Origin: Enoplolaimus lenunculus
Taxonomy: Eukaryota
Assembly (NCBI GenBank): GCA_030248215.1
Contig: JASANG010001414.1
Coordinates: 744,001 to 808,000, forward strand
Reading direction: 5' to 3'
Length of the DNA stretch: 64,000 nucleotides
Below the pieces are notes generated by a model, which was not told the origin of the DNA, made no database searches, and was given only the letters and a program-made list of their open reading frames with translations. A program made the translations under genes and the position numbers. Below, piece by piece: positions 228 to 36,314 of the stretch (positions are counted from its first letter, which is position 1; every line of letters starts with the position of its first letter).

Positions 228-360
228 GAAATTTGATACACCTGAAAAGCCTGCATCTGTCCCTGTGTATAACAAAGAACGTAGTTTCTGCCGCTGTTTA
301 TAACACAGAACTTAGCTTCTGCCCCTGTGTATAACAAAGTATTTAGTTATTTTATTACAG

Positions 361-3300: not shown

Positions 3301-6140
3301 ATTATTTTGAGTGCATGCTTACAGCTTCAATACATAATATCTGTAAAATGTTTTTATCGATGTGGATATTAGGCGTCAAGCTTAACGTTCTTGCCATTAC
3401 ATTTTGATTGTCTGTTTGTACAAAATGTTTAATTTTGTTTTGAAAAATTCTCATTGAGTTTAAGTCAAAGGTTAAGATCAAAACTCTGGCATTTGAAATA
3501 CCGTCGTTTGGTAAACTTATTACGGAATAAAAGTATGTTTATAGGTTGGAACATGCGATTTCATCAAGGACAATAACACAGACTGCCTCAAATATTATAG
3601 GTAAATTGATGGACATTCGTTGTTTAAAATCTTAGCGTCATTGAATTTGTTGGCCTATGTAAAGATCACGAGTCTAACGTTTTTCTACGGTACTGCAGTA
3701 GAATAAGCTTACAGCTTTAGACAAATTTCTATTTCGATTTGGCTTCGGTTAGGCTTAGGTATAAACGCATTCTTACCCTAAAGCTAATGTTTAGGTTTAG
3801 GCTTTAGTGTAATATGCTTATAGTACTGTTACGTTCCTGTTCTATAGATTGGCTAATTTGTTTTCTATTCTGAAACGGGTTCAGTGCGTAGAACATACGT
3901 TTAGAATTCGTTAGATGATTGAAAACAAAATTAAAAATGAATGTTTTGAATAGCAAAACTTAACGGACATTAGCAAAATGCTTTGTTCTTCAAATTAAAT
4001 TAACCGCTCGTCCAGTTCATATGGGACGACTGCAAGTCAACTGAACTTTCATGGTGTACCCCTTTACATAATATACTACGCTGCAAATCTGATCGCGATA
4101 AGATATGACGCTACCCTCGTCGTCTCATACCAAGCGATACATGGTCCATGTTACTTTGAGGGCATACCGTTTTTTCCACAGGTCTTCACTAGAGTAAGCT
4201 TATCTTTTAGATTGTTTTTGCTTAGGCTTAGGCTTGGGTATAAACTAATATCTTTACGCTGAGACATAAACTTTAGCTTAGTCTTCACTGTTGCGCTCGT
4301 TTAAGTAACATTGGCCCAAAATGTTATAAATAGTATTGATTTTCAGAGAAAACACAGCTTTTATCGAGATTTACTATGAACAGTTGAATTTCGAGTCACT
4401 TCGTGAAAAAGAAGCTTATGGTGTAAGTATACTTTAGCGATTCAATTAACGTTTATATATTGTGACCGCATTTTCAAATGTTTGTACACTGCAAAAAACT
4501 GGTGAGTCAAATTGACTCCCACCGAAATAGGCTCTACGGGACTACACAAACTGAGTCAAATTCGACTGTGCAAGAGTCAAACATGCGACTATAGAGTGTT
4601 TAATTTGACTCTGGCGGAGTCGAAATGGACTCAGTTTGTGCAGTCCCGTAGAGCCTATTTCGAACACAGTCAATTTGACTCACCATTTTTTGCAGTGGGA
4701 AATTACCCCTTTTCTGTACAAAATTTGAGTTTTGCAACCACAACAGGTCGTGAATTTGAAAACCTATCACCAACTAGTAATGGGTGCTATGCACATTTGA
4801 GAATATGAGCCCAGATGGCCACAATGAAGCTATTCAATCTTAGTGATATAGTAAGTACGGTTGAACGGAACACGGTCTATAGGTTCCAGCCGTCCAAATC
4901 TTGCGTTCAACTAAAATAATATTTCGTTCTGTTTAATATTGTTTTACCTTTGGTATCCCGGTAAACCCTGCTTGAATAAAAGTTTAAACTTTCAAGTGTT
5001 GGCACCAACACAACTGCACGAGTGACATAAGAATCAGATACACAGCCTTTTAGTGTATACCCCTCTAGTTCAATCAGTGACTCAAAAATATACCTATTCA
5101 CACGGCGTTTTCCACGCTGATTAGGTTATTTTATTGATCAAATTAGCAAGAATTTTAAAATATTGATCAATTTCTATGATGCAATGATTTTTAAGTTGAT
5201 CAAACCAGTATCGCATATTAAAGAGTGTTTTCAGATTGAAAGTCTTCTATCCGATTTCGGCGGTAACATCGGATTGTGGATCGGATTTTCAATGATAACA
5301 GTCGTTGAATTTTTAATTTTGTTCACTGAAGCGATCATTTATTGTTGTGGTGACGAGCCGAAACGGCGTCGACTGTACGCAGCGAACGCTCGCGCTCGAC
5401 GAAAACAAAAGGAACGCGAACTGCGACGACAAGCACAACGAGCGTCAGCGCAACAGCGGCATCTGCAAAAATATCAACTCGAATCGCAATTTCAACACGA
5501 ATTAGCTACGTCATCGCAACATTATGACGCAACCAAACACGATTCAGATAGCAAATATTTATCGGCGTCTAAAATGAACAGTGTGCCGGCGACCGGTGGC
5601 GCAACTACGTCGAGCGCAACGATATCGCCTAGTAAACAGCCTGCCAATTCGGCACAAACGATTTCGAAACTACTTCCGGGTAAAGCTGGCGCACTTCAGC
5701 TTGCAGCTATTGGCCGACAACTTGCTACCTCCGCAGCGTCACCTTGTGCGAAACATTCTGATTCCGGCCGATCTTTAAGGGGACTTCGAAAAGTGCCCAG
5801 TAGTGCCAGCGCTCTCAGTGTGGCGTCTCAGCTGATGCCACTGGGCCGTATGTCGCCTAAAGTATCACAATCGCCTCATCATCAGTCTATTCGTGTTGCT
5901 CGCGATACTATCGCGTCGCCTGTGACCCCACCCGCAAGATCGTTGGCTACCCATTTCAGCAGGCAAGGGCAAGGACAAGTGAAATTTTCGACAAAAGCTG
6001 AAACGTCGAACCCGAATACACCAAACGCACCAAGCTCAGGAAGTAGCGCGTTGGAATTTGACCCTGCCATTCAAAGGGTGTCGCGTAGTCATCAGCAAAT
6101 GATCAATGGCGATAGGAATAATAACAACAATAACAATAAC

Positions 6141-6175
<35 letters not shown>

Positions 6176-6203
6176 TGATGACGTAGCTACGTCAGCACTG
6201 TGA
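361..6203 (+). CDS. unc-8: DEG/ENaC degenerin channel, UNC-8-like, 3' part (5' exons outside window). Exons 361-453, 1358-1472, 1984-2065, 2765-2822, 3545-3600, 4347-4422, 5235-6203
   Basis: All exons have AG/GT boundaries and join in phase: PYGKC...YSTE|GCYRSCFQKLILKTCGCGDPRFP...|CECVQPC|TEFIYQVTYSAANWP|...CLKYYR|ENTAFIEIYYEQLNFESLREKEAYG|IESLLSDFGGNIGLWIGFS. The TM2 and GxS filter segment closely resembles recalled nematode UNC-8. Confidence 0.9.
1565..1838. mobile_element. Tc1/mariner-type palindromic MITE
   Basis: TA|CAAGAGTGTGCAACT...AGTTGCATACTCTTG|TA with long internal inverted symmetry. Confidence 0.7.
3652..3854. mobile_element. Merlin-type MITE, subfamily B
   Basis: GGCCTATGTAAAGATC...ATAGATTGGCT with perfect 8-bp TSD aatttgtt. 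Confidence 0.8.
6117..6173 (+). repeat. (AAT/AAC)19 coding microsatellite, poly-Asn
   Basis: 57 nt in frame within the last degenerin exon. Confidence 0.95.
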
Positions 6204-8794: not shown

Positions 8795-11700
8795 TCAATA
8801 TTCTAAATTTTTCAAATCGTGAAACTTATACTCAAACGGCGACACCAGCTGTGTCGGAGGTACCAAATTTAGCGATCGTAACGTTGATTTTGACGACGTC
8901 GACTGTACCCGTTCAGCGTTGCGTCTCTCGAATGGCCTGTCCGACAGTTGACCATACTTCAACGTCTGCAACCCCCTGGCGTGTATATCATCAGCTACGC
9001 GGTCGTTCTCATTTACTGCCGCTGAAAAGCGTTGATTATGACTTCGTGCAATTTGTTCAAAATCCTCAGTAGTTGCTCCTCTATCGTGGGTACCATTTTG
9101 AATATGTACTTCGGTTCTGCTCCCAGTAGATATACCGTACATTTGAGCCCTGTACTCAGTTTGGACGTTTCTCTGGATTTGAGGCATCTTCTGGTCGTCA
9201 ATTTCGTAGCCATTATCAGCTTGCTCCACGATTGACACTTCACCCTTAGGAGCCTTTGCGACCGCTACCTTGTACCAAGGCATGATTGTTTTCACCAGAC
9301 TAGCCCGTTTTCGCAATAAAGCTTGTACCCTTCGGGTGTTCCGGTGGGAATACGTTCGCCGGACCGTATCCGGGACGTAATAAGTCGTGAAATCGCGTCG
9401 CAGTCGTCTCCATCGGTATGTAACTGCTTGTTTCATAGTTTGAGCTTCCTGAAAAAAGATCAATTTTACTTTTAGGGCCGTGTAGATTAATCATATTCCT
9501 AAGCCTAATCCTACGCGTTAAAAAGCGTTCACTTAACCATAAGCCTACGCCTAATGGCCTATAAAAGCCTATTCACACGTGCAAGTTTTTGCAGCGAGAA
9601 TTCAGACTATACTATCAAAACCTACCGTTTTGCAGTCCAACCCGAAAACGGACTGCTCTAAAGGTAACATGGGCCCTGAAGGCCCCTGAAAATCGTTGAT
9701 GTGTGCGACGCCATGCGAAACCGGAATATACAGTAGGACAAAAAGTTTAATACAAAATCTGGTATAACAACAATATTCATACTTACGATACAGACTCCAG
9801 ACGGCACGTAGGCAGGTGTAGGGGCCAATGTTACTTTAAGAGACGTAACACTAGATTAAGCGTATTCCTAAGCCTAAGCCTAAGCCTAAGCGTTGCAAAA
9901 GTGTATTCCTAAGCCTAAGTCTACGCCTAAGACTGAGCCTAAGTCTAAGCAAAAAATGTAATCTAGAATCTAAACCTACTCTTTTATAGAGCCACCAGAA
10001 ATCTGGACGCCCCTTAAATTAACATGGGCCGAAATACCAATCTTGGAAACATTATATTTAGCCAAGCGGCTTGCCAAGAATTGACTTTTAGTGCGTGATA
10101 ATTTACATTTTGTTCATCCACAACAGGCGGAATCGTACCTCGATATGACCGCTTTTCACAACTGCAACGCACGACCACGCAAGTTCCGCCATCAGTATAA
10201 AAATGCTAATCATCACTAAGAAATAAATGATAAAGAATACTCCTGAAAACAGAAATTTATATTTAAAAAAAATTTCAATTTAAAACCATTTAAACAGATT
10301 TAAAACTAAACAAAGCAGAAATTAATATTTCTAAAATTTCAATTTAAAAAACAACATTTAAACAGATTTAAAACTAAACAAAACAGAAAATAATATTTCT
10401 AAAATTTCAATTTAAAACACAACATTTAAACAGATTTAAAACTAAACAAAACAGAAATTAATATTTCTAAAATTTCAATTTAAAAAACAACATTTAAACA
10501 GATTTAAAACTAAACAAAGCAGAAATTAATATTTCTAAAATTTCAATTTAAAACACAACATTTAAACAGATTTAAAACTAAACAAAACAGAAATTAATAT
10601 TTCTAAAATTTCAATTTAAAACACAACATTTAAACAGATTTAAAACTAAACAAAACAGAAATTAATATTTCTAAAATTTCAATTTAAAACACAACATTTA
10701 AACAGATTTAAAACTAAACAAAACAGAAATTAATATTTCTAAAATTTCAATTTAAAACACAACATTTAAACAGATTTAAAACTAAACAAAACAGAAATTA
10801 ATATTTCTAAAATTTCAATTTAAAAAACAACATTTATACAGATTTAAAACTAAACAAAATAGAAATTAATATTTATAAAATTTCAATTTAAAAAACAACT
10901 TTTAAACAGATTTAAAACTAAACAAAACAGAAATTAATATTTCTAAAATTTCAATTTAAAACACAACATTTAAACAGATTTAAAACTAAACAAAACAGAA
11001 ATTAATATTTCTAAAATTTCAATTTAAAACACAACATTTAAACAGATTTAAAACTAAACAAAACAGAAATTAATATTTCTAAAATTTCAATTTAAAAAAC
11101 AACATTTAAACAGATTTAAAACTAAACAAAGCAGAAATTAATATTTCTAAAATTTCAATTTAAAAAACAACATTTAAACAGATTTAAAACTAAATAAAAC
11201 AGAAATTAATATTTCTAAAATTTCAACTTAAAAAACAACATTTAAACAGATTTAAAACTAAACAAAACAGAAATTAATATGTCTAAAATTTCAATTTAAA
11301 ACATACAACATTTATATAAACAGATTTGAAACTAAAATGCCAGCTTGGTATTTCACGAAACCAACTTAAAAGGCGGTGCCATGAGGTGGCGTAACTAGGA
11401 TTTCATTTCTAATGGGTTGTACTCCTGTATGAAAGTACATTACGCCGCAATGTGAGTAAATATTCGGTTAATAACTATGAAATATAGGTGATAATGAATA
11501 CTCCTGAAACGAACGAATTTATAGTTTCAATAAATATTTTTGAAAAACAAACACTTCAACTGTATCAATTAAATGGTCCATGTTACTTTAAGGGGCGTCC
11601 AGGTTTCTGATGGGTCCATAAAAGAGTAGGTTTAGATTCTAGATTACATTTTTTTGCTTAGGCTTAGGCTTAGGCGTAGGCTTAGGAACACGTTTTTGCA

Positions 11701-14700
11701 ACGCTTACGCTTAGGCTTAGGCTTAGAAATACGCTTAATCTACGGTTACGCGCTTTAAAGTAACATTTGCCAATTAAATAGAGAGACTTACCTGACATTG
11801 CTTTGAAATCAACTTTCATTGCAGCGCCAGCAGGTTTGTTTGTTTCATCAAACGACTTGCATTCAGACTGAGTGAACCTGTAAAAAAAGAAAAAAACGTA
11901 AAACCGAAAACGAGCGACTAAAATTGTCGCATGCTACAAAACCATTTACTTGAAAGTGTCGATTTAGTAACGTTTTTTATATTAAAACGTAGCTTCTAAA
12001 AGCGAAATTTCATGGTAATAAATTGGTAAATATCACAGAAGTACAAACTTGTAATAAATATCAGGTTTTTGCTTGTGAAATTTCAAAAACTGAATTTTTT
12101 TGTATTACTATTTTTGACCAATGTATAGAACAGGGTTGTAACAGTAGTATAAGTATATTTCTAAACGTATGCCTAAGCCTAAGTGTAACAATGGGCTTAT
12201 ATCTAGGCCTAAACCTAACTCTAAGAATGAACACAAAATTAGTCTAAAGCTCAAGCTTATTGCAGTCCCGCAGAAAAACATTGCGCCCCTGATTTTTGCA
12301 TGATTCCAATCTGTTATTTTTAACATTGCCTATCTGCAGTAAACTAAATATATACTTGTCGCTGGTTCTGGTTTATATCCAGGGGTGTATCGAATAATTT
12401 GTATTGATAAAATAACCGGCCCATGTTACTTTTAGCGGCGTCCAGGTTTCTGGAGGGTCTTGCTTTTAGATTACATTTTTCCATAGACTTAGGCTTAGGC
12501 TTAGGAACGACATTTTTGCAACGCTTAGGCTTACGCTTAGGCCTAGGAATACGCTTAAACTACTGTTACGTCCCTTAAAATGTAACATTGACCAAATAAC
12601 AAATACCACAAAACGTCTGAAATATATGTGGTCTCACGCCAAACCAGATTGGTAAAATCAATCATTATGCTTTACAGTACACAAATGAAGAGAGGAAAAT
12701 TCGTAATTTAAAATATGAATCAAAATTCTATAGGCAGTTTAATTCGAATTACCAATAATTTTGAAGCTGAGTAATGAATCCATTTTCTTTAAGCTTCAAT
12801 ACGTAATAGTTCAGTTCGCTTGTGAACGGCGAATTTTTTGGCAGCGCAAATCCGTACATAGAATTAGCAAACGTATCGCCGACAACAACCAGGTCGCAAG
12901 GTTTACGCGAAGCCAAATAATCCAAAATTGGCTTGTCGTAAATAAAAGCATATTTTCCGGTTCGTGTCTAAAAAATTAATAAAACCACTCCTTTAAGGAA
13001 TTAGCTAGAAAACGTGGTATATTAGAGAGCGTGGTAGTTTGTCTGTAATGGTATTGAACAAATTTATTTTTATAAAAAAATTGGTCAAATTCAAAAATTT
13101 CGTTTTGCCACCAAAAATACTAAAAGTCAAGATTCACAAGTCCAGCGAAATTTCCGCTCAACACCCAAACCGGAGTTGGAATTTATGCTGCAGTCGAAGA
13201 TAGACGTTCAGTTGGACCCTGATTGATACTTTGGCTCATGTAAAGATCCGGATCGCAACGTTTTTCTGTGGGACTAGAAAATAGTAAGCTTAAGCTTTAG
13301 ACCATTTTTTTGGTTTGGCTTAGGCTTAGGCTTAGGAGTATGCTCATTCTTACGCTTAGGCTTAGGCTTAGAGTAAAGCATATACTTATAATACTGTTCC
13401 GCCCATGTTCTTTACATTGGCCGGCGCGCCGCCGGACGCCGCTGCACGCGACGCGCGGCACGGTAAAAAGCGTAACCGTAAGCGTTGAAAGAAGTACAAA
13501 CCGGAGCCCAAGCCTGAGTCTAAACAAAAATGTAGTCTAAAATCTAAACCTACACTTTTATAGTCCCATCACAGACAGGACCTGGCCGGAAAAAAGTGTG
13601 CCGGTAGTTGTGAGTGACTCGCAACGCAATATTACAGTAGGTCAGGCTCTCTAGATTACTTTATCTACGGAGCAAAGGGCAATTATTTGTTTACCTGTTC
13701 AATACCAACGTCAGAACTCGCCACAACCGAATACGTTCGATCTTTCATCATCACGTCGTACATTGTCGAAAATAACGGATTAGGACTAGTGCTAAAAAAC
13801 GTTAGGCCAGCGGTCGCAGTTTCTGTCCCTGAAAAATGACCAAAACTTAATCAACACTTAGCGGTTTGGTAAAAGGTATACGTGTAAAGAGGCGTTTAGC
13901 TGAAATATTTCAGAAATATTACTACTTTCTAGGCGCTTTTGCAATGCGCTCAAATGCCTATCGTAATCGTTTGAGCGTAAGTAACTGCGGCCACGTTTTA
14001 AACATAAGTTTGCCTAAGGCTAAATAATGTTTTCTGTCATACGCCATCTGTTGCTTAGAACTATTGCCAGCAAAAGCGTCCACACGCGGGCAGCCGTGCC
14101 CCCCGCCTCAAATATGGTTGGTGACACTCCAAATAGGACAAGGAGGATTTAATTGTTCTAAAAGTAAATAATCTTGAAGTTCAATTGTAGGACCCCCAGA
14201 AATTATTCGGTGCACCACTGATACAATTTTCTGTGGACGCCCCTGCATGGTAGGCTGAGATGCGCCAGTGTGTTGTGTAAAATTATATTATTAATCTTAC
14301 CGTATTTTATCTCTGATTGTTTTCCTAAATCATCAATTGAATCAATTCCTGTCTTTAGAATGCTTGATGTGAACACCGCTGCCATGTTTGCAGTGTATGA
14401 CGAAGTCAGTATCATAACTGCTATCCACCAGCATACGGCAACTATCCTGCCTGGAAAGAACAAAATTTTTTCTGCAGCACTGTCATCAAATCAGTGTGTG
14501 ACCGGATATCACCGGATATCAGTTTCCGGTAAAAAATCAGTGTCCGTTTTGGTTTGTGTTTTAGATATAGCGGAATTACTGAAAATTTTGCTATTTTCAC
14601 AATTATAGTTTAATAGAGAAAAATTTATACAAAATATTAACGATTTATGGTACATCAGTCATTTTTACAGAAAATTTTTTGAAAACCCAGTAATCGCTTG

Positions 14701-17700
14701 CATACCTCAATTGCACGGTAGAAAAAACAGAATATCTTGTAAAACATTTATACTTCAATATTCGTTTTTCATTTTCGTTCATATTGTTTTACTATCCGTT
14801 TGCAACCCTGGCACTGTTCTTCGTTCGTTGATGGCTTACATGCAAAAAGTTGAACAAAATTACCTGATAAACTCATTGGATGTGTCGGTCCTTGTTTAAA
14901 TAGACAGGTCCATGACGCCCAAACCGAATTCATAAAGTCCAGCTGTTGAGTTGCTTCTTTGTGCCATTTTACAAATTGTTTTTGAGCACCGCGAAACCTG
15001 AAATTTACAACATCTTGTAGGTTGATTTATTTTCAACAAAGATTATTTATGAACATGCAAGGAGTACGGTGAAATCAAAGACTCATTGGCGTACAAAATT
15101 GCGGCTCACATCAAAGCGATGGCTGCGCGAGAATTACCAGTCAGCAACATTAGAGTCAATTCTTCACCAGCTGTAGCATTATCGTTTGCTTGTAGCACCT
15201 ATCGCCAGTTGTTAATAGTTTTGATAGTTTGGCATACAAAGATTGCAAACTCAGGATGCTCAGAGCGGATCCAGACGGTTTCGTTGGGTGCCCGCGAGCT
15301 CTCCTGTGTTTTAGGCAAAAAGAAAAATTGAGCAATGCTTCGAGTTGGACAGCATCAATTAAGTATGTAAATGGTACAACCGAAGGTCTTCCTTCGGTTT
15401 CGACTCCTCCTGAAAATCGACCTCCGGTTTCGACTCCAGTAGAACTTTTGCAATGTTTTATTGTTTAGAGCAATTGTATCGTACCCGTGAACCCATTTTA
15501 AACGTTTTTGGGATCTCGTCTGTCTCTTGTTATCTATACTACATTTCCAGTTCGTTATGGGCCCCTGGTTAAAGTACTGTCCTCAATTATGGCAAACGTG
15601 ACTGACGTTTAGGAAATTTTAAAAACTAAAAGTTTCACTTACCTTGTAGCCCTGTAAGCATAAAATAATAGTGTTTAGAGCTGTATTGAAAATTTTTAAA
15701 TATTATGATCATAAACACAGAACCCGTATTGTCAAATGTTTGTAACACCTTTCACCAATTGGTGATATATCTTGTAACTTTCAAACCAGGCAATGATGAT
15801 ATTTGAAATTCAGCACATTTATTGCAAATCAATTTACTCTACTTCTGTGCAAATTTTAAGATCTACAATTTCAGCAGTTCGTTAGTTTGAAAACCTATCA
15901 CAAACCGGTGACCGTTACTATATGCATTTGAGAATATGGACCCTGGTGTCAGTTCGAGGTCATAGCAGACCTGTGCAGACACATGCGATTGCGGTATCGG
16001 AAATGTCGGTTTGACACCCCTAAGGATTTGTATTTTGACTCCTGGTTTCTATCGTAGATTGAATTCCTATCGGGAATGTCGGTTTGACACCCCTAAGGAT
16101 TTGTATTTTGACTCCTGGTTTCCTATCATAGATTGAATTCCTATCGGGAATGTCGGTTTGACACCCCTAAGGATTTGTATTTTGACTCCTGGTTTCCTAT
16201 CATAGATTGAATTCCTATCGGGAATGTCGGTTTGACACCCCTAAGGATTTGTATTTTGACTCCTGGTTTCCTATCATAGATTGAATTCCTATCGGGAATG
16301 TCGGTTTGACACCCCTAAGGATTTGTATTTTGACTCCTGGTTTCCTATCATAGATTGAATTCCTATCGGGAATGTCGGTTTGACACCCCCAAGGATTTGT
16401 ATTTTGACTCCTGGTTTCCTATCATAGATTGAATTCCTCACCGGATTTGACGACCCTCCGTTATATTGAGTTTGAGGCTGCATCCAGCTTGAAAAGGATA
16501 GAAACCGATATTACTGGATAAATTTTACTTTTTAAACGCTTAAATTTACACACGAGTGTAAAACATCTGAACGGGACGAAATCAACAAATATTCGACGTA
16601 CAACAATATAGGCTCTGACTACGATTGCAGTCCTATGTAAAATTTGACCAAATCATTGTAACATAAGTTAAACCTAAGCGTCGCGGTATACTTTTTGGCA
16701 AATATGGAACATGAAAGAGTTGCGAAATATTAATAATCGCACGATTTGGATGTTTTAAACTGATAAATTGAACGAATGTGAAGGTTACACTAGTTTTACA
16801 AACATATATAAACAACAGTGTATAACGAAAGCGACAAACCCTGTAGCCAGCTCTCCTAGCTACGGGGTACGCTAAATTTTTATCACCTGAGGCATACAAG
16901 GGTTTTCGATGACTTACAAGCAAGGTTGAAAACTTTCAAGGGCCTCCAAAATTGTTCCACGAGGGCTGTAGCCGCCCTCTTGCCTCGGGCTAGCAAAGCG
17001 AGCTTTAATCGTCTGCAAATTATGCGCAAGCTACGAGCTATCGTTACTAAAACAAAAGTTTTTGACCAAAATTGAAATCTAAATCGGTTCATGACCATTT
17101 AGGCTTAAGCTTTACGTCTCGCGGTGCCGCGTGTCATTTAAAAAAATAACTTTTATAAAACGTGCGGTGCCGGGCGGAAACTCGAGCTGCCGCCCGTCCC
17201 ATCTAAAGTTTACTTTTATTGGCGATGCGCAACCACACAAAAGTGAAGCGCAATTCTTAATCGAAACGAGTCGTTTCAACTTAAGCAGATAAGTAATGTT
17301 GACTTCAAAAACAAACCTTTGGCCTGATTTCTTTACGTTGTAATACGTTTTACTCAATGTCAAGTTTGATTCATTTTGATAATAAAGTAAGCGAAGCGAT
17401 TGTCTGCGCTCAGAGAAAGAAGGAACTAAAATTGACTACAAATGTTGAAAACAACACAAAAAGTAAACCGGAAATACAAGGAAAGCAAACAATACTCGGT
17501 GCCGGAGCAGGCTAAGTTGGGGCCTCCAAAATTCTGGATTGGGGGGATCGTTGCAATGATCACAATATTTTTTAACTTTTTTTCCAATTTTGTTTCGGGT
17601 TGGCATCCCCAAGTCGGGGGTATGCGGGCGGCTGCTCTGGCTCTGACAGTACAACAAACAAACAACCAAACCGTATTTTCCAAAACAGTTTTCAGACACC

Positions 17701-20700
17701 AAAAAATAGCAAAACTTCTTTTGTAAAATATCGCAATTTGGAAATTCGGTAAAATCAAAATAAATTAGGAATAAAAAAACCTAAAAGATTAAATGTACGG
17801 CAATTTAACTTTTCTGCATTGTGATAAGAATGCACAAACGAGCCATGATGGCTGTATTATTTTTGAATCAAATTTCAATTTAAGACAGTCCATGTCAAAG
17901 TTTCAGTTTAATGAGATTCGTTTTTTTGAATTACGATATTTTTCAAAATATTGCAGGAAATAAGTACTTAATTTGTTAAAAAATATTCCGATTGTGGCAT
18001 TCCGTTTTTCAATCTTTTGAGATGTATGCGTCACTTTACAGAAGGAGCAGAAATGAAAAAAAAAGTTAAAAGATAAACTTAAATTAGCGATAATGGCAAT
18101 AGCACCTTTCCATATCGTGATAAGAATGTACAAACGAGCCATGATGACCGTATGGAGAGGCCTTATTCGCGAAAGCGATCCAAATTGCAACAGCGAAAAT
18201 TGTCCCCAAAAGTACGAGCCAAAGTTTTGAGTCAAACGGCATCAAAAACTTAAACCGATTTTCAGTATCCGCAGGTCGACGCAACGCGAACGCAAGACCG
18301 GTGGCATAAAATTCAACGGCGAATTCAAACTCAGATTGACGACTTTCAGTGATGGTTGTTGTTGCAGCGCTCAAATCACAACGCTGAAACAAAACAAAAT
18401 GGTCGGTGTTTTTTTCATATTTTATATTTACCTCATAGCAAGTAGATTTTTGATCAACATTAAAAAATTACATAGCTAATGGCGTAAAACGAGAAGTTGC
18501 AAAGTTTTTTCAAATTACATAGCTAGCGGTAAAAATACAAAAGTTACATAGCTAATGGGAATATTAAAAATTACTTAACTAAGTGACAAAAAAGTTTAAG
18601 TTTGTTTCCAGGTAGGTATAAAGCGGTTCTGGAAACAATTTAAAATGATGTGATCTGAGCGCAGCAAAACACCAACCACCGCCAGCCAATCAAAACGTTT
18701 AGGCACGGTATATGATACCCCTTGGAGTTAGCATGTTCCATTGGACAAATTCCGAAAGAATGGTTTGAACAGGGTTTTATTTAACTAATCGTTAAATCGC
18801 TTCACTAACGGGAATTGTTAACCAATCATTGAATGTCTTTAACTAACAGGGTTTATTTAACCAATCATTGAATGCCTTTAACTAACAGGATTCCATTTAA
18901 CCAATCATTGAATGTCTTTAACTAACAGGGTTTATTTAACCAATCATTGAATGCCTTTAACTAACAGGATTCCATTTAACCAATCATTGAATGGCTTCAA
19001 CTAACAGGGTTTATTTAACCAATCATTGATTGGCTTGACTAACACGATTTTATTTAACCGTAAAGTTGGAAAGGTGCAATTGCCGAAACGATGACAACTT
19101 CTGCAGCAGTCAGAAAAAGAACACGACGACAAATTTACGTCTAATTATACATGCTAAAATATTCACGCGAACAATGACAACTTCCTTCCATACAGACCTG
19201 CCTAAATCATGAGGAGTAAAAATAAACGAGCCATGAGCGCTGAACGGAGACAATTTATCAATTAAACTGAAGCAGACTCCAGTGATAAACGTAGTCGCAA
19301 TCACTGCAAACCATAGCCGGTTGCCGAACGCGGTTAAAAAGTCAAATTTTCCACCGTCTGCTGGTGTTTTGAGTACAAATACAAGTCCAGACGATAGCCA
19401 GTTACTGGTGAAATCAAATTCGTGAATCCGTTGCTCAGAGATCGCGAGTATTCCGGTGCCCAAATCGCAACGCTGAACAATGTTTGTGAAAGTGTAGCCC
19501 AAGTTCGTGGTTTGTATTGGTTGAGAATTAAGCTTTGCAGCTTACTTTACTGACCAGAAGCGTGGCAAGGATTTCGTTCCGCGAGCGTTTCGGTTGAGCC
19601 GGTTGGTAATGGGCCAGGTGTTTTTGCCATCTACATACTCTCTCGGAAAACTGCGGACCCGATAGATAAACTTTAGCATAGCTTGTAGTTAATGCTACAT
19701 CCACTCATGTTTATGTGTATAATTTTGTCGTACCTCAAAAAAATTGTTTGGGGTAGATTTTACTTTTGGTCTAAACGGTTGTTAGTGCTTAGTAAATCGC
19801 AAAATTTGAAATTTTCAATATTTAAGTAACTCCGAGAAATATTCTCACATGTCACGAAAAGGAACATTTTATTGCTAAAATACATGTGTACTCGTTGAAA
19901 AATACACAAAAATCTAAAGCACATGCGGTTAAAAATTGAGTTTGGCACATCGGTCGCTTCGATCGCGAGCTTTGTATACAAAACGAACTAAAAAATGCTA
20001 ATACCTCGGATTTCAAATCGCCAAATATTCCAGTCCATTTTCCGTCTTCTTTCGCACCCCAAAGACCGTCGGAAGGATATCTCCAACTATAATTGAAACC
20101 AATCTCTTGCGAGAGTCGTTCAAACAAATCGATGACCAAACCTAAAATAGAGACAAATAAATTACTTCCATTATTGTCGTCGTTAAGTTAAATTGGAAAA
20201 GTTAAAATTTCGGCGAATTCAATTTAATATCACAAAAATCGCATTTTCATCACCCAGACTTTCAAGCTTAAGCTGGTTTTATTTACGAACAATTTACCCC
20301 AAAATCATTTTACATCACGCGAGCAAATGAAGCGAGAAGCCAAACACAATTTTACTAGGAATATTTGAGCTGAAAATTTGTCGTCCCTCAACGACGGCAA
20401 AATATATAATTTGGGGCTAAACATGGCTGTTTCCTTTCCACGATAAAAATATGAAAATCAGAAAATGCGAAAATCGCACCCACCGCATTTTCTGATTCCA
20501 GTTGTCTTTATTTTATAACGTGACACAGGGTACAACTTTACCGGCGAGTTAAACGCGAATCGGCTAAACATTTCAGTCTTTTTACCAGCGCCTAACATTT
20601 AATAGTGACAAGTTATTGTTAAATTGTAGGCGTTTAAAGTTTCTCGTGTCAAACAGCAATTTTTCCTAGAAGTTTAACTCATTTTACCTTTGAGTTTAGA

Positions 20701-23700
20701 TTTCGGAATTTCGTACAACTCTGACGCGTTCGCAATATTTGAACCATTCCAAGCAACGTACCAGCCGCCTTCATCTGAATCGACATGTGTGCATACGAAC
20801 ACGTGTTGACCCTTCAACGAACTTACGTACCCTAAAACAGAACAATACATCTTAAATATATACACCGAGCGGTTTATGAAATATTAATTTGAAACAAAAT
20901 TCGAAAGAGAGTTTAATAATGCACGAGCCGCAACAAACCCCCGTCAGGGTTCACTTGAAGTGCAATTAAATTTAATTTTTACTAATTAATACAGGTTAAC
21001 AGTTCAGGAATGCTAACTTTGGTCTGACTGATATTGTAGAATCATGGTGCCTCCTTAAATGTTTTTATTATGACCTAACCATGGCTCACACTTGGCGTTT
21101 ATTTGTTTTTGCTAACAAAGTTAAGCATGTGCTTTTACGTCGTCGACTTAAATAATTACTATAGTATACTTAAGTAACTATTTAAGTAAGATTTCAGAAA
21201 CCCAACCATTATGCATGAAAAACAATAATTCAAGTACAATGCGATGACAAAACGACCCACAATTCCAAGTGATTAATTTGTGCGTCTTGTCAATCCTTAT
21301 GTAATTGACATTAATTTAATTGATCGACGAAAACTGGAATAAATTAATTTCTAAATTACAATCTGTTAGAAGCAAATTCAAACGTTTATAATTTTAAAAA
21401 TAATTCATAAATTAACACATTTTTCATTGCTAATTATATACTAAAAAGGACGTGAAAATAAATATATGAAATTTAGTCAGCTACTTAAGTATTTACCTAA
21501 CTCAAGTACGCTTTTAAACAAAATGGTTTAAGTAAGATTTACTTCGCACGTACTTAAGTGCTAAGCCGATACTTAAGTAAAACTTCAGAAACCCAGTCAT
21601 TGTGTCGTAGAACATTTCTGGCTAAATCTTTAAAATCATGAACAAGGTTTTGGTATCCATAAACGGGGACTACAAGATACCTGATATATTATTTGCATTG
21701 CCAGGTAAAACAATACGTTTTGATGGTTCCACTGTTCCCGTAACTGAGTTCCATTCAGCGATCTAAATTCATAATCATTTTAAAATAAGGGCCGCGCAAA
21801 AATCCTCTCTAAAAAAATTTCCAAAAACCGGCCGGGTGAGGAGGGGGGTAAAACGGGGTTTAGGCGTCGAACCCCCCCTTTGTGTGTTTTTTCGCGCATT
21901 AAGTGCTTTTTCTTTTTCGGACGGAAAAAAACCCCAACCTCCTACTTTTGTTTAGTCCCCCCTCCTTAGGAAATAAACAAGAAAAGTTCTCACCCGGCGG
22001 GTTATCCGCGCATAAAAAACCGCGGGGGGGGGGCGGGCCCACCTCGCTCCAATATTTTTTTATGGGATGGAAAGGTCCTTCCCTCCATTTCTCCCCCTTT
22101 GAAAGATTTTTTTTAAAAAATCTATTTATTTCCTAATTTTTTTTTTTCCGCCATACATAATATTAACTCAGAAATGACCATAAATGTCTAATTCTCTTTC
22201 TGAGTTGATTAATCACAACGGACAGGAATTTACAGTTACCGCTTCTATAGCTTGACAATGAAAATTTGCGACTAGGCAATCACACTGCGTGCAACTCAAA
22301 TCAAATACCATTTAGTTCGACAGATAATTTGAAATTTATTTTTAAGCAATTTTTTAAATATATAAATTTAAACTTACTGCTGTCCATTGCGAGTCTTGTA
22401 AATTATAAAACAACACTTTATTCGGAAAACTGGATTGTTTTATCTAAAATATGAAATCAAACTGAAACTAATACAGGTACTCATTGTAAAACCCTTCTGA
22501 ACCTAAATTGCATATGGCTATCTCAGCTGGCCTTAATTGTCTTTTAACATAAAACCAAATTCTCAGTTAACCAAGGTATAACCTTACGATGAAGTCGAAT
22601 TTTGACATCTATACCCGTATTCTCAAATGTGTGTCCAGAAAAGCTTGAAACAAGTTCATTTTGCCCTATTCCTATGTGAAAAAGTATTGACTTTGCCAAT
22701 ACTGATTACCAGACACTTGTTACCAGTCAAACACGCTTTGGAGGACTATCAACCAGCCAAACTTGAGTTTAGTTCAACGTCTAGACTTTTGGGAATACCA
22801 AAAAAATTCAATTTAATATTTATATATTACCTAACTTTGCTTCACGTTCATTTGCCGATTCCAGCTCCGGTATAATTTTGTTTTCAATTCCAGTTGCAAA
22901 CAGGGCCATTGCATCAGTTTTGCATGTATAACAAATCCAAATCCTCACCGAGCCTGTAGCCAGAGATGGCGCAGTCGACGCTCAGCCCTCATTATGGAAG
23001 AATTTTGGCCACCAAAGAAAATTTTCAACTCTTGTAAATCATCGAAAATTGTTGTTTGTCCAGCTGAAAATTTTTTTAGCGACCCTAGCAAAGTGAACTA
23101 GATACGGGGCCTGTTCCATACACGTATTATGATAAAGATAGTCAAACATACCTTCAGTATATGCGTAGCCAGCTTGTCAGACAGCGTATTAGTTCGGTCG
23201 CCGTTTAGGCAGGAGACATTTTCAGTAGAAGATGGCTTGGGGATCTGAGTCGCGTCAAATAGATTTTCTTGACTGAGGTTATAAGCTCGTAGCACAAGCG
23301 AAAACGCATTGGTGTATTGTATTATTCGACTTTCGTACTAAAAGCACTTTTACGGTAGTTTTTGAAAATGTTCTGCAATTAGTAAATTGATTGCAAATAT
23401 CCGCATTTCGCCTCATGGTGAGGTGGGAAATGCTACGAAATTTTCGAAGCAATATCATTTCTAACGCATAAAATACCAAAATTACGCCTAACTTCTTGCT
23501 GGCTTCTCTTGCGAGGTTAGTGTATTCTTCATCGTTTTATCGTTTAGAGAACCAAAAACAATGCCAACATGTTGGTGTGACGTTTTTTAAAAAATTTTGC
23601 CAGCTAACAGATACCCTAAAATTAGTATATTTTTAATACAAATTATACGTATTGTCACAAAGTTTGTAGTTTCGATTCTGATTCCGGTATAATCCAGTTC

Positions 23701-26700
23701 CGTTTTGCACCCTGATGCACAAGCTATAATCGACTATGTATATTTGAAGTATTTGTGTACCAACCCCCTAAACGAAAATCCCGGCTACACCCATGAAATA
23801 AGAGCGAATTCTGACATTTCGTGATGGAATCATCGGTTTGTTTCCATACAAAGCTTAGATTGGTCATTGGTATACATCAATTTAACGATTTTGTCAAAAC
23901 TTTCTTCTCGTTGTTTAGACCCCTCTTACGTGAAAATCCAAGCTGCATGCCTACCAGCTTACTAGAATTGATGGGTAACATAAATGTTTATTAACCAAAT
24001 CCAAATAAAATAAGTACTAAACTTACTATTGAGTCATCGGTTCCAAATTTTTGAACGTAATTCGGAACGTACGACGGTGACATACCAATAAGACCATTGG
24101 GAAAACTGTAGTTGTGTCGCATGACCTAAAACAGAAAAATTAAAATCTAAAAATGATGGAATATTAACTTTTTGATTATTTTGAATAAACATTTCAAATC
24201 GAATGATTATTAATACACGAAATGTAGAAGCAAACCAGTAACAAATCCGACCATCATATTTATCGGCGATGCTAAACATGAACGAAAAACAAGCAAATAT
24301 AAACATAGCGGCCCATGCTATTTTTAAGGCCATTACGGTTTCTGGTGGGAATATAAAAGTGCAGGCTTAAACTTTAGGCTGCATTTATTGCTTAGGTTTA
24401 GGTTTAAGCTTACGCTTACCGTTAGGTTTACACTGTTTTAACGTTTAGTCCTAGGATCAGGGTTCGGAATTTGCATAATCTACTGTTTCGGCCCTAAAAG
24501 TAATATTGGTAACATAGCTAGTATTAGGCCTATGAAAAATAGGAACCGCCAACTGTATAAAAAATCTTTGAAGCTTCTATACTTTAATATCCGTTTTCCG
24601 TTTCCGTTGTTTAATGTCCTATTCACACGTGCAAGTATTTTTATCAAAACTCGCAACTGCAACTTGCACTACCTAGGTTAGGCTTTGGAATATGCATAGT
24701 CTACGTTTACGGCCTTAAAAATCTTATTGGTAACATAGCTAGTATTAGTCCTATGAAAAATAGGAACCGCTAACTGTATAAAACATCTTTGAAGCTTCTA
24801 TATTTTAATATCCGTTTACCGTCTCCGTTGTTTTATGTCCTATTCACAAGTGCAAGTATTTTAATCAAAACTCGCAACTGCAACTTGCATTAAATACTTA
24901 AAGATGCAAGTATTTGCAAGAGTACATCACTTTCATTCTGAATATTGACATGAATTTTTATATGAATAACTTGCCGACAACGGCTTTAAATATCAAGCAG
25001 ATGCTAAAATTTATCAGTTCAGTCAAAAAGGATGAATCAGTTTCATGTGCAAGGTTATTCAAAGTTAAGAATTAATTCTTGATGCCTACTCATAAATAAT
25101 TTGCAGCTGCAAGTTATTGGATTGAATTTTCGGACCATGTTACCATAAAGGCCGTCCCAATTTCCCGGGACGCCAATATAACCCGAGTGCACACTTATGT
25201 GTTCCTATTTACATATGCACGTAGGATATATATCTGTCCCATTTGTCCCAACTGTCCCAACTGTCCCATCTGTCCCAAGTGTCCCATCTGTCCCAAGTGT
25301 CCGAACTGTCCCATCTGTCCCAACTGTCCCATATGTCCCGCTGTCCTATCTGTCCCATCTGTTCCAACTGTCCCATCTGTCCCAAGTGTCCCATCTGTCC
25401 TAACTGTCCCAACTGTCCCATCTGTTCCAACTGTCCCATCTGTTCCAAGTGTCCCATCTGTCCCAACTGTCCCATCTGTCCCAAGTGTCCCAACTGTCCA
25501 ATCCGTCCCAAGTGTCCCACCTGTCCCATCTATCCCAACTGCCTAACCGTCCCATCTGTCCCATCAGTCCCTGTCCCATCTGTCCCAACTGTCCCAGTTG
25601 TCCCAACTGTCCCATCTGTATCACTGTCTCATCTGTCCGAACTGTCCCACTGTCCCAATTATATTTTGAATGTACTCCTGGTACATTTCTGTCCCGGGAA
25701 AAATGGGATGGCCTTTAAAGTAACATTGGCCGAATTTTCTAACAAACATTCAGCTGCAAGATTCAGCTGCAAAAAACGCAAAATTTCATGACTTGAAAAG
25801 GCTTCCATACCGATACACTTTCCGCTGAGCACTTAAAAATAAACCTAATCCTGTCACCACTGCGGTAGACTGCGGAATATCAAACAAGTTTGATATTTGA
25901 ATTAATTCAAGCTTCTTGATTAAATTCAAAAGTCCGAATTTATTCAAGAAGGGCTCAGCAACACAGCTTTAGATTGAACAATCAAAATGCAGGTACAAGA
26001 ATGGCATGAATTTCAATGAATTATTTGCATCTGCAAGAAATTCAAATCTGCTTTGTGACCAAATTTGCGGGCGCAAGTTTTTCTTGCAAAAACTTGCACG
26101 TGTGAATATGGCTTTAATCACTATCCGTTTCCGTTATTTTTACTATCCGTTTACATCCTGCTATAGCTTCAATTGTTGTTCGGGTTAACCCAAATAATTA
26201 ATAGCACAACAAAAGTTTCAACTAATCATATTCCAAATTCCAACAAAAAAACGTTTGTATTCAGTTTTCGGCCCCCAAGTTACTTTAAGGGGCGTCCAGG
26301 TTTCTGGTGGGTCTATAAAAGAGGAGTTTTAGATTCTAGATTACATTTTTTGCTTAGGCTTAGGCTTAAGCTTAGAAACATATTTTTTGCAACGCTTAGG
26401 CTTAGGCTTAGGAACACGCTTAAGCTACTGTTACGCCCCTAAAAGTAACATTGGGCCAGTTTTCTGTAACAGTAAGGTATTTTAGGCGGCCCTGAACATC
26501 CATTGGTGTTGTTTAGGAAACAGATCAATTGCCAACTGTTACAAATAGTTGTTCAAGACACCAAAACATATTTGTCTTGCTTACACAACCGGTAACTTCA
26601 GACGATAGAATCCACGCCCATCCTTCAGTCATCATATCCATATATGCAGCAAATTTGAGAAGTACGAGCGATTTTTCGCAATCAGTCCACAATACACAAA

Positions 26701-29700
26701 CTCGAACTTCTGAAACTGGCATACCAGCTGGAACAGTTTAACCAATAGCGATTCTCCAATCAGCAACTATATTAACATTGGCGAATCTAATTGGTGGACG
26801 CTCTGACTTAATAATATGCATTCATACATAGAACGGCCATGTTACTTTTAGGAGCGTCCAAGTTTCTGGTGGGTCTATAAAAGAGTACGTTTATATTCTA
26901 AATTACATTTTTCTTTGCTTTTGCTTAGGCTTAGGCTTAGGCTTAGGAACGCATTTTTGCAACGCTTAGGCTTAGGCTTAGTCTTAGGAATCCGCTAAGT
27001 CTACTGTTACGCCCCTTAAAGTAACATTGGCCCATAGAACAAAATGCAAAATTTTATCTCAAATTTTAGTACTAAAATTGAGCTTGGCATATCGCTAATT
27101 TTATGATCTCTGCGATCAGAAATTTTAAATCGGAAGCTAAATATCACAAAACAAGCCAACTTTAGCATAGTGGAGCTACACTTCCTATAGATCTGTACTG
27201 CAGTGACACGAATAAGAGGGGGTAATAAAAGGGGATTCCCATTATGAGTCCCAATCATCAGTAATCCGTATCCCTAATAAGAGTTCGTGAGCGGATACAG
27301 TCTCTAAACCCTAACTAGAGTCCATAAATGTCAATTATCCCTGATTGTAGTGCATAAAAGACTCCAGGACCAAATAAAGTTGAGTTCGAAACTTTAAAGC
27401 ATGCTTAAGTTTGAAAGTACATTCCTAGTATAACCTTGCATCTTAACCAATTAAGCTTTGGATACAAAACAAATAAACGGTTAATTCAAGGGATCGTTGC
27501 AATACCGGATATCTATCAGTAACGAACGGCGGCGGAGAGCGCGTTAAAATAAACAACAGTTCCGCAACCGAATAACAGGGGGTACCCTCTTTACAAGCAA
27601 AATAAATATCAGTCCCCCCTTTTATTCGAGGTCACTACAGTAGATATGTTTGTGACGAAATGTTTAATTTTTCATAGAATTCATTCTTTTTAAGATTACA
27701 AACATTACTTACTTGTACGTGCCATGGCATAGCTCAGAGTACTTGATTTGAGGGTCGAATTTCAAGACATCTTCTTAAACGCTTGGTGTGCGTATTAAAT
27801 TTATCCCAGTAGGTTTGGTTTAATTTAAATTTTAAAAACACTTTGAATACCTGAATCTTGTATTTTAGCAAGTTCATCTGAAAATTGACCCCGGTCGGTG
27901 ACGTTAAACAGTTTTGTAATAATGCGAGCACTCGACGCTTTGGTCAAAAATGAATTCACTTGATCGAGATCTGAAATTTAAATTCAAGTGTTAAATAATT
28001 ACTGCAGTTTTGCCTTTGGTTTAAATATATTTCTATGAAAAAGTCGCATATTTGTGTTCAACTGTTTATGAAACATTACTGCCAATGTAAAGAACAGGGG
28101 CGAGTCAGTATTATAAGCATATTCTTAAGCCTAAGCCTAAGCCTAAGCCAAGCAAAAACATTAGTCTAAAGCTTAAGCTTACTTTGTTGCAGTTTAACAA
28201 AAAAACGTTCCGTCCCCGATCTTTACATGGGCCAACATTTTACGCACCATTGCGGGTAAATGCATACTGTGCTTGCTTAACTCAACTACGCATTTCGAAA
28301 CCTACAACACTTCCGAAAACGAAGTGACGGCTCCAATTGGTCGTTTTTTGGTTGTAATTTTAAGTAACACAAAATAATAAATAAAATTAAATTTTCGACT
28401 ACGGAATTAATAGGCATGGTGAGGTATTCGAATATAAAGTTCAGCACAAAATAAAGTTCATTTATAACCGTGTTCGTGGTGATTTTTGTAGTTTAGAAAC
28501 CTTTTTCGGCATAATCAAAGTCAAAGTTTATAGACAGGAACATAGCGAGTTCATTTTGGCAATATACCACTTCATTTAAAAAATTTTTGCTTGCCAGCAT
28601 AGAGAACAAAACTTTTTTATATTTTTTACCCTATAATATGGCAAATTTCTCCTAAATCCTACACGAGTACATTTTTTCTTTTCTTTTGCGTAGTTACAGG
28701 AAGAGTATATCCTACATATCACTATTTTTGCATACGCCCGTGATTAGAGTACACACAAAATAAATTGTGTTATATATTCAAGAATTATTGTCTAAAATTT
28801 AGGATAAATATGGTTTAATACTGTCACAAAAAATATATGTCTTGAATTCCACACTTTTATTACTGTACTTTTTTCAGAAATATTTTGTCTTGAAAATTTC
28901 AGAAATTAAGCGTTTTGAAGTTTCAAGACAGTTCTTTTGAATGTAGGGCCATTCGGTGCATTCGAAACAACATACAGACACTTCAGTAAATTGTTTACAC
29001 TTATAAACGAATATGGGTTTCAGTAGATCCACGCACCTTGAAATATAGAATCGACAACTAAACCGATGTAAGGCCACTTGAAATTTCGAACGAAAGCAAT
29101 CACAATATCCGCTTCTAAATTTGTCGCCGGATACGTGTCAAACAGATATCTTCTAAAATTATTACTTGTACTTGTACTAAAATGAAATAAAACTCTCATG
29201 AATTGTACACAGTAAAACACTGTGTCAGGATTATGTAGCAACTAGAGTCTCAACTATCCATTTGAACTTATTCTAAAATTTGAATTTTATTTTTAATTTT
29301 ATCGATAAATCAACATTTTGACTTTTGAATTTACCTAATTTCATTCCTATTATCTGGTGAATTTCACGCTACGTTTAGTTCGGTAACCATTTTGGTTTCT
29401 GTCTGTATTAATATAACAAGCTTCGTAGTTGTGTATCTAAAGCAAAGCGCTTAGGGTTTTTTATTGAATTTGTCTTGTCCAATCGAAATGTGAATATGGA
29501 ATTTTTTTCCAGCACATATATTTAAATATCCTGTCATAAGCAGGGTCGAAACGGGACCGTAGCCAAAATGAGGGGGCAGGAGGGCTCTGCCCCCCTGGAA
29601 AATTTTGGGCCTTCCTAGAAAGTTTTCAACCTTGCTTGTAACTCATTGAAAACACTTGAATGCTGCCCCTCCTGAAAATTTTTTAGCCTTCCTGGCAAGT

Positions 29701-35637: not shown

Positions 35638-36314
35638 TTGTATAAGTTAGAGCTGTTTAGTTTGGCCTTTTTCTAGTCATAGTTACTTCCAATTCCGCAT
35701 GATATTAAAAACATTTCTTTTTTACATCTTGTTGACAAGGTGCAGGCGTAGGTTTCTTCTAGGAATATACTTGTACCACTACTTCGCATCTTGCAGTAAA
35801 ATTGAGAGCACTTTTTACCCTTAAAATACAAATGTGAAAGTCTCTACGCTCATAAATCATTTGTAACGTTTTACATAGCTAGTTGCTATAAATGTTACCT
35901 TTTATCTAGGTACAGCACTCTTCATCGGTTAGTCGTAAAATCCACGAAGTGAAGTCCAGCGATTCGAAAACTTGTAATATCCAGCCCATCATTGTGAGAT
36001 ATCTTAGTGGTATCATGTCTGACTAGTGTTGCTGATAGTCAGGAAATCGACATAGTTGATAAAGAAAGTGATATAGTAAAATGTATTGATTTCCGTTTCA
36101 CATAATTCATGACAAAACATAATCTTTTTGCTTTGGAAATGCATATACTTTTTTAAATTGTACATGGTACCCTGATTTTTTATGTCGCAGTTAGGCAAAC
36201 CGATTTGATACTGCACTTGTCGTCTTGGTTAATTAATTAAATGAAAAAGTTTGATTGATTTCTTTTGTAGAATTGCATGGCTTATTAAAGCTACGACACT
36301 CGAACATTTTCGCT

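What the first reader, a model, noticed from the sequence alone, without database searches (positions are those of the whole stretch)
18106..19472. Mutually exclusive duplicated exons swap the ligand-binding S1 segment and M1 of an iGluR
Seen: two intact paralogous exons (275 and 278 nt) both start RCDL at phase 0 and end HDxxR at phase 2. Including both would frameshift, and skipping both deletes M1 and frameshifts. They are highly diverged yet both open, which suggests selection on each. Known: this segment holds the GluA2 P478/T480/R485-equivalent residues. 13A reads ILAISEQR (T480 replaced by A) and 13B reads TTTITESR (T kept). Inference: one gene makes two receptors with different ligand pockets and M1 helices. 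This differs from vertebrate flip/flop splicing, which alters the S2/pre-M4 exon.
Basis: partly seen in the sequence, partly recalled or inferred. Interest (0 to 1): 0.88.

Follow-up and report, generated by a model that had tools for sequence, protein, structure and literature searches.

The report
Swappable ligand-site exons, RNA-guarded glutamate receptor
An invertebrate glutamate-receptor-family ion channel gene carries two intact, very different copies of the exon for the upper ligand-binding lobe and first membrane helix, and two intron stretches complementary to both ends of the second copy; it likely splices in one copy at a time to make two channels predicted to differ in gating more than in which amino acid they sense.

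Summary
Observation confirmed. Exons A (19472-19198) and B (18383-18106) are open, AG/GT-flanked paralogues (37% amino-acid identity) with identical phases; using both or neither gives an early stop. Both keep 12 of 14 family-conserved columns, diverge most at third codon positions and are sisters in a tree, so both look selected. New here: two single-copy elements in the A-B intron (19084-19067; 18704-18649) are complementary to B's donor and B's first ~50 nt (z -5.8 and -9.6; the other 34 of 36 splice-site windows lie between +1.3 and -2.9). B has the strong acceptor, A a weak one, so the stems likely hold B back. The ligand claim is weakened: published mutagenesis finds upper-lobe residues (P478, T480) poor predictors of agonist, and the lower-lobe motifs are in shared exons. 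The swap changes helix D, the pre-M1 proline and M1, so gating, desensitisation or assembly are the likelier outputs. Nearest relatives are Epsilon-like annelid and amphioxus receptors (32-36%). No RNA data or orthologue was reachable, so splicing is not shown. The scan has noted other iGluR exon pairs and other anti-exon stems on other DNA, not this one.

The parts
20005..20141 (-). Constitutive upstream exon (start of S1; carries Trp at the Y450 position), phase-0 donor
19198..19472 (-). Alternative exon A: end of S1 (I/A/R at 478/480/485), helix D, S1-M1 linker, pre-M1 (conserved Pro replaced by Ala), M1, start of M1-M2 loop; weak acceptor
19067..19084 (-). Intronic element el1: 17 of 18 nt complementary to exon B's donor (-7 to +11)
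18768..19059 (.). 39-nt tandem array (7.5 copies) between el1 and el2; no similarity to exon B's interior
18649..18704 (-). Intronic element el2: complementary to exon B from its third base over about 50 nt (43 pairs, 6 G-U; core 18667-18649)
18106..18383 (-). Alternative exon B: same segment (T/T/R at 478/480/485; pre-M1 Pro kept); strong acceptor, modest donor
17799..17857 (-). Partial direct copy (81%, 59 nt) of B's 3' end and donor; a 42-nt in-frame AG..GT unit 17851-17810 with very poor splice sites: relic or decoy
15643..15651 (-). 9-nt in-frame microexon (phase 2/2) in the M1-M2 loop, strong splice sites
14864..14997 (-). Constitutive M2/pore exon; Lys at the Q/R site, no acidic residue at +4
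12753..14450 (-). Constitutive exons 14450-14301, 13828-13695, 12967-12753: M3 and S2, with the shared lower-lobe motifs (T-A-G at 653-655, Y-D at 704-705) and helix J
8798..11877 (-). Exons 11877-11792, 10242-10139 (M4) and 9448-8798 (C-terminal tail)
20688..30070 (-). Amino-terminal-domain exons; open frame 30070-23152 and from 22671 onward, one join (23152 to 22671) unresolved, first exons not located

Best explanation
One ionotropic glutamate receptor gene, likely of the Epsilon clade, holds two tandem copies of the S1-end/pre-M1/M1 exon and likely splices them mutually exclusively, with two intron elements predicted to fold onto both ends of exon B, giving two subunits predicted to differ mainly in gating. 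Shown: the duplication, matching phases, early stops for the both/neither products, constraint on both copies, and the complementarity of el1 and el2 to B's donor and B's start. Inferred mechanism: A has a weak acceptor and B a strong one; while the A-B intron is attached, el2 pairs from base 3 of B and el1 covers B's U1 site, so a transcript that has taken A cannot add B and joins A to the next exon; when the upstream donor reaches B's acceptor first (stem not yet formed or opened by a factor), A, el1 and el2 leave in one lariat and B's donor is released. Leak products would be removed by nonsense-mediated decay. Inferred output: the swap changes 4 of 7 helix-D positions and 7 of 8 positions at 490-497 (the face that meets the shared helix J in the LBD dimer), the pre-M1 proline and M1, so desensitisation, agonist potency and subunit or auxiliary-protein contacts would differ, while both forms likely answer to the same non-glutamate amino acid (no Gly653 or Thr655; Asp705). 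My odds: both exons used 0.8; stems act on splicing 0.6; gating rather than ligand identity 0.65.
For: Frames and stops. One gene. Selection: identity 49/91, 57/91, 38/91 at codon positions 1-3, pS 0.67 vs pN 0.41; simulated neutral drift to 85% identity keeps the frame in 4 of 500 runs with indels (153-156 of 500 without) and to 75% or 65% in 0 of 500 (34-68 without); each exon keeps 12 of 14 columns conserved in >=70% of 137 homologue segments, equal to the homologue median; a younger duplicate of the M4 exon at 11503 already has a frameshift. A and B are sisters, 96/89 (48 of the 137 segments used). Stems: exon-B start -54.3 kcal/mol, z -9.6, 0 of 200 shuffles; B donor -30.0, z -5.8, 0 of 200; other 34 of 36 windows z +1.3 to -2.9; fold z -4.5, 0 of 100; pair probabilities 0.92 and 0.93; better on the transcribed strand (-54.5, 6 G-U) than the opposite (-40.2, 1 G-U); both elements single-copy and no inverted match to B's interior. 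Acceptor scores A -3.0, B 11.4 against 0.6-14.1 for 11 constitutive acceptors. The intron is 814 nt and GT-AG, which rules out steric and U12 mechanisms (mechanisms listed in PMC6071210). Function: PMC13648236, PMC11563869 (helix D 482-488 and helix J form the dimer interface; Pro520 in pre-M1), PMC8257547 (flip/flop acts at the same interface).
Against: No transcript, junction or orthologue was seen, so inclusion of either exon and conservation of the stems are untested. Exon A is the more deviant copy: 15 of 29 columns conserved at >=50%, below the homologues' 10th percentile of 17 (B 18, median 21), with a lost pre-M1 proline and an acceptor below every constitutive one. The homologue set was picked with an A+B profile (some circularity). 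With a simple ungapped score the stems were less exceptional: ranks 2 and 3 of 36, 1 of 100 each, with two other sites at 2 and 0 of 100; against the whole 64 kb, one tile beat B for el2 and three for el1; el1:B was 8th of 16 listed helices in the 5.3-kb region. No competing partner on A is supported: el2-to-A-start probability 0.0 in all snapshots, el1-to-A-donor region 0.72 only in the shortest (2.3% and 6.9% of tiles as good), so how B is ever chosen is unexplained. B's donor is also predicted to be locally paired without el1 (unpaired 0.04-0.26 at 8 of 9 positions). The G-U strand bias rests on 7 pairs.
Confidence: 0.6

Rival explanations
1. One reading: the two isoforms prefer different agonists because the upper-lobe pocket (478-480) is swapped, making one gene encode receptors for two transmitters.
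For: I/L/A versus T/T/T at 478-480; Ala is rare there (6% of 137 homologue segments); closely related amphioxus Epsilon receptors differ in agonist and mutation effects are hard to predict (PMC13648236); an Ala at this position occurs in a GABA-selective receptor.
Against: Same paper: polar and non-polar residues at T480 occur in both glutamate- and glycine/GABA-selective channels, and reverting the Ala (within a triple mutant) left GABA selectivity; Arg485 is kept in both; residue 450 and all lower-lobe motifs are shared.
Confidence: 0.25
2. Only one exon is used: the stems silence B permanently (or A's weak acceptor has retired A), and the other copy is a recently inactivated reserve.
For: Predicted pairing of B's ends is near complete with no competing fold; A's acceptor scores lowest; the gene holds two other decayed exon copies.
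Against: Both copies are open and keep family-conserved columns after near-saturation of silent sites; a dead B would more simply lose its strong acceptor than acquire two stems.
Confidence: 0.15
3. The stems are editing-complementary sequences for ADAR, as at the GluA2 Q/R and R/G sites: el2 covers the Thr codons 478-480 (A-to-I at a first base would give Ala, the residue of exon A) and el1 covers the last codon of B.
For: A long imperfect duplex over ligand-contact codons; intron-exon duplexes guide iGluR editing (own knowledge; R/G site lies 2 nt before a donor, PMC8257547).
Against: No A-C mismatch marks those adenosines in the predicted duplex; both stems abut splice sites; no reads.
Confidence: 0.12
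4. el1 and el2 are the surviving ends of a neutral inverted copy of exon B and do nothing.
For: They are collinear with an inverted B; the locus is prone to local duplication.
Against: No trace of B's 220-nt interior in four flanking stretches (74-156 of 200 shuffles as good); ends fall at both splice sites; G-U bias on the transcribed strand.
Confidence: 0.15

Closest known systems
AMPA-receptor flip/flop exons (GRIA1-4; PMC8257547 passages, PMC13520880 passages)
   Same: Tandem-duplicated mutually exclusive exons in an iGluR; both/neither products frameshift and are NMD candidates; the swapped part contributes to the LBD dimer interface.
   Different: Flip/flop is 38 aa with 8-10 changes at the end of S2 (helix J side, S2-M4 linker), vertebrate-specific, with no known RNA-structure control; this pair is 91-92 aa, 63% different, on the S1/helix D side, includes agonist-contact residues, pre-M1 and a whole membrane helix.
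Human ATE1 exon 7a/7b module R1-R3-R4 (PMC7797038 passages)
   Same: An element in the intron between two mutually exclusive exons pairs near a 3' splice site and hinders it.
   Different: There one element has two competing partners, proven by compensatory mutation; here two separate elements clamp both ends of the downstream exon and no competing partner on the upstream exon passes my tests.
Docking-site/selector and bidirectional pairing systems (Dscam, 14-3-3zeta, Mhc, srp; PMC6071210 part 1)
   Same: Long-range pre-mRNA pairing linked to a duplicated-exon cluster.
   Different: Those pairings are mostly intron-intron and expose an exon; these are intron-exon and would mask one.
Epsilon-clade iGluRs of amphioxus and annelids (PMC6307864, PMC12226733, PMC13648236)
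   Same: Best protein matches (Owenia CAH1789880, Branchiostoma XP_066273511; 32-36%), Arg485 and Asp705, long M1-M2 loop.
   Different: Long branch, Lys at the Q/R site, T-A-G alphaF motif; no alternative exon of this kind found in the searches.

Membership tests
Ionotropic glutamate receptor | ATD-S1-M1-M2-M3-S2-M4 order with SYTANLAAF-type gate, Arg485 and acidic 705 | tested here: met
   Pfam Lig_chan 2e-15 and Lig_chan-Glu_bd 6e-8 on constitutive exons; profile order; motifs
Epsilon subfamily | Falls in the Epsilon clade in a tree | tested here: inconclusive
   Quick tree: with Owenia and amphioxus receptors, 97; careful tree: 88/89 with Owenia, 80/40 for the wider group, outside a 91/95 group holding delta-like and IR8a/25a-named proteins. 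No NMDA, AMPA or Lambda reference rows; neighbours' Epsilon label rests on the SQP motif, not on a curated name
Epsilon subfamily | Insertion in the M1-M2 intracellular loop (PMC6307864) | tested here: met
   Loop about 44 residues, like Owenia (about 42); the shorter GluA2 length (about 30) is recalled
Tandem-duplicated mutually exclusive exons | Homologous neighbouring exons with the same phases and similar length | tested here: met
Tandem-duplicated mutually exclusive exons | Both copies under coding constraint | tested here: met
   (within one genome; no orthologues)
Tandem-duplicated mutually exclusive exons | Transcripts contain one or the other exon, and both forms occur | not testable with these tools
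   No RNA run was listed for this stretch
Flip/flop exons | Located at the end of S2 before M4 in an AMPA-class gene | tested here: not met
   Exons map to S1-M1
Docking-site/selector competing structures | One element with alternative partners at each variable exon | tested here: not met
   Partners on exon A no better than background
Docking-site/selector competing structures | Conservation with compensatory changes; rescue by compensatory mutation | not testable with these tools
   No related locus found

The most novel reading that the evidence does not exclude
A single Epsilon-type iGluR gene switches its agonist-contact upper lobe, dimer face, pre-M1 and M1 by mutually exclusive splicing, so that the two subunits differ in preferred transmitter or in assembly partner, and the choice is set by a two-arm 'anti-exon clamp' encoded in the intron between the copies that self-removes when the downstream exon is chosen: an independent invertebrate counterpart to flip/flop acting on the opposite face of the ligand-binding domain.
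Probability: 0.22. Interest if true: 0.85.

Novelty: new variant of a known kind. Interest (0 to 1): 0.6.

Why it matters
Flip/flop is the textbook mutually exclusive pair of iGluRs, and a 2026 review of AMPA-receptor evolution says splicing in the invertebrate receptors studied is still to be examined (PMC13520880). This pair would be a second, independent origin at a different module, and a natural chimera experiment: two subunits identical except for upper lobe, pre-M1 and M1, which tests directly the claim that upper-lobe residues do not set agonist choice. The clamp gives a small, mutable candidate mechanism (two elements of 18 and about 55 nt), whereas no such control is described for flip/flop (PMC8257547).

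Tried and rejected
No whole genome is held for this window. RNA runs: none was listed; this is no evidence on expression. Orthologue searches were blank: exon A, longer proteins (156 candidates, none significant), the S2 exon (10 candidates), a dsRNA-binding-protein frame used to place the organism (7986 candidates), metagenome contigs (166 and 592 pattern matches, none confirmed); the HMMER scan of 1.84 billion representatives gave 552 hits but none closer than about 44% over a short stretch. The organism therefore stays unplaced (an animal with fast-evolving proteins). Multi-match proteins in that scan were repeated binding-protein domains or fused/repeated gene models, not double-exon models. 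Rfam: no match in 14800-20300. Two genes in tandem: rejected. Steric and U12 exclusion: rejected (814-nt GT-AG intron). Competing pairing with exon A: not supported. A complement of the 13-mer shared by A, B and the B fragment: none within 2 mismatches. The first splice-site matrix held two mis-registered donors and was redone. Six exon ends used were a few bases off the final model; A and B were exact. No structure or complex was predicted, as neither isoform exists as one continuous stretch of the window. Literature: four searches aimed at an S1/M1 exon pair in an iGluR (listings and abstract starts only) showed none; the library lacks most subscription journals. Supplement files of PMC6307864 and PMC12226733 were cut when stored, so clade names for the nearest homologues could not be read.

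Full report
Check of the observation. On the minus strand, two exons of 275 nt (A, 19472-19198) and 278 nt (B, 18383-18106) each follow TTCAG, end before GT and translate openly. They share 34 of 91 residues and match the S1-end to M1 segment of solved iGluRs. Either exon keeps the frame open from the phase-0 donor at 20005 to the stop at 8798; both together stop at 18373-18371 and neither stops at 14898-14896. A profile of full-length homologues hits this segment twice and every other segment once. The amino-terminal exons are open from 30070 to 23152 and from 22671 on, with one join unresolved. So the gene looks intact and the duplication is internal.

Are both copies alive? Identity is 49, 57 and 38 of 91 at codon positions 1, 2 and 3, with pS 0.67 (near saturation) and pN 0.41; neutral drift of one copy to 85% identity kept the frame in 4 of 500 simulations with indels and about 155 of 500 without, and to 75% in 0 and 60-68 of 500. 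Of 14 columns conserved in at least 70% of 137 homologue segments each exon keeps 12, the homologue median; of 29 columns at 50%, A keeps 15 and B 18 against a median of 21 and a 10th percentile of 17, so A is the more deviant. A and B are sisters (96/89) on long branches in a 50-row tree. A more recent copy of the M4 exon at 11503 has already taken a 2-nt insertion, a useful internal contrast.

The repeat finder showed two inverted repeats joining the A-B intron to exon B. el1 (19084-19067) matches B's donor from -7 to +11 in 17 of 18 pairs; el2 (18704-18649) pairs with B from its third base over about 50 nt. The two are nested and enclose B. Testing the first 50 nt and the donor of 18 exons against 1 kb on either side, B gave z -9.6 and -5.8 (0 of 200 shuffles each), A 0.0 and 0.5, and the other windows up to -2.9. 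A cruder ungapped score was less clear (ranks 2 and 3 of 36), and over the whole window one tile beats B for el2 and three for el1. The elements are single-copy and nothing else in the intron resembles inverted B. The el2 duplex is stronger on the transcribed strand, with 6 G-U pairs against 1. From 11 constitutive sites, A's acceptor scores -3.0 and B's 11.4 (range 0.6-14.1); donors 7.2 and 3.9 (range 3.0-11.1).

How it most likely works. The intron (814 nt, GT-AG) excludes steric and U12 mechanisms (PMC6071210, part 1 read). I infer that the stems offset B's strong acceptor and block B once A is taken; choosing B removes A and both elements in one lariat; decay of frameshifted products cleans up. 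An ATE1-like switch (PMC7797038, passages) would need el2 or el1 to pair also with A: the homologous start of A can form a short helix with el2, but energies are at background (2.3% and 6.9% of tiles) and folding snapshots give 0.0 for el2-A and a transient 0.72 for el1 with A's donor region. B's donor also folds locally without el1. How B is selected is thus open. ADAR guidance and a neutral inverted relic are the rivals.

What the swap changes. By alignment to GluA2 (mature numbering recalled, consistent with PMC13648236 and PMC11563869) positions 478-480 are I-L-A in A and T-T-T in B, Arg485 is kept. PMC13648236 (parts 1, 3, 4, 5, 6 of 9 read) finds no link between these upper-lobe residues and agonist preference and places the main determinants in the lower lobe; here those read T-A-G and Y-D and are shared, pointing to a non-glutamate amino acid for both forms (inference). 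In contrast helix D (482-488), which meets helix J in the dimer interface that governs desensitisation (PMC11563869, passages), differs at 4 of 7 positions, 490-497 at 7 of 8, the pre-M1 proline (85% of homologues) is Ala in A, and M1 is largely replaced. Flip/flop acts on the other side of the same interface (PMC8257547, passages). Gating and assembly differences are therefore the better bet; a ligand switch keeps about one chance in four.

Family and novelty. Nearest proteins are Owenia and amphioxus receptors at 32-36%; Epsilon membership is likely but not firmly supported (PMC6307864 and PMC12226733, passages and partial supplement searches). No orthologue, related locus or RNA run was found. 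Four literature searches (listings only) showed no iGluR exon pair at this position; PMC13520880 (passages) says splicing in the invertebrate receptors it studied remains to be examined; PMC13762713 (abstract only) is a precedent for intronic elements steering such exons in another ligand-gated channel. Earlier notes of this scan describe a pore-exon pair in a crustacean-type kainate receptor and anti-exon stems in other genes; none covers this genome or sequence, I did not test them, and the stems here were found before I read them. Verdict: a real, new variant of a known kind, unproven at the RNA level; interest 0.6.

Noticed in passing
window 11503-11400 (-): Decayed copy of the M4 exon with a strong acceptor (score 12.6), a 2-nt insertion and a stop after nine codons, upstream of the real M4 exon and separated from it by a 68-nt x16 array (10246-11336); could act as a truncating or poison exon.
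   Followed up: partly
window 17857-17799 (-): Partial copy of exon B's 3' end and donor; would add 14 His-rich residues in frame if spliced, but both sites score below all constitutive ones.
   Followed up: partly
window 19236-19224, 18144-18132, 17848-17836 (-): An exact 13-mer is shared by A, B and the B fragment, including silent positions, although silent sites elsewhere are near saturation: candidate splicing enhancer or gene-conversion patch; no complement found.
   Followed up: partly
window 14997-14864 (-): Genome-encoded Lys at the Q/R site and no acidic residue at +4: would predict low calcium permeability and no polyamine block (inference from PMC12226733 passages).
   Followed up: no
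window 15651-15643 (-): 9-nt in-frame microexon in the M1-M2 loop with strong sites; may be optional.
   Followed up: partly
window 1-6200 (+): 3' end of a DEG/ENaC channel gene (Pfam ASC, 1.6e-8) converging on the receptor gene.
   Followed up: no
window 36255-38790 (+): Weak RIC3 match (E 0.004, below cut-off) at 36255-36485, followed by an acidic open frame: possible RIC-3 chaperone gene head-to-head with the receptor.
   Followed up: no
window 42159-44549 (+): Single 797-codon frame with dsRNA-binding motifs (Pfam dsrm 6e-20), staufen-like by my recall; no relative found.
   Followed up: partly
window 47900-60200 (+): Multi-exon gene whose frames resemble an armadillo-repeat plus BTB protein (recalled impression; no Pfam hit on four pieces).
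   Followed up: no
window 9867-9950, 11656-11751, 13317-13371, 26345-26416, 26923-26947: Dispersed element family built around CCTAAG/TTAGGC hexamer runs in many introns; also 9-nt x48 (25234-25658) and 74-nt x6 (15995-16438) arrays.
   Followed up: no
window 22130-21800: Stretch rich in G, C and A homopolymers that looks like low-quality sequence inside an intron.
   Followed up: no
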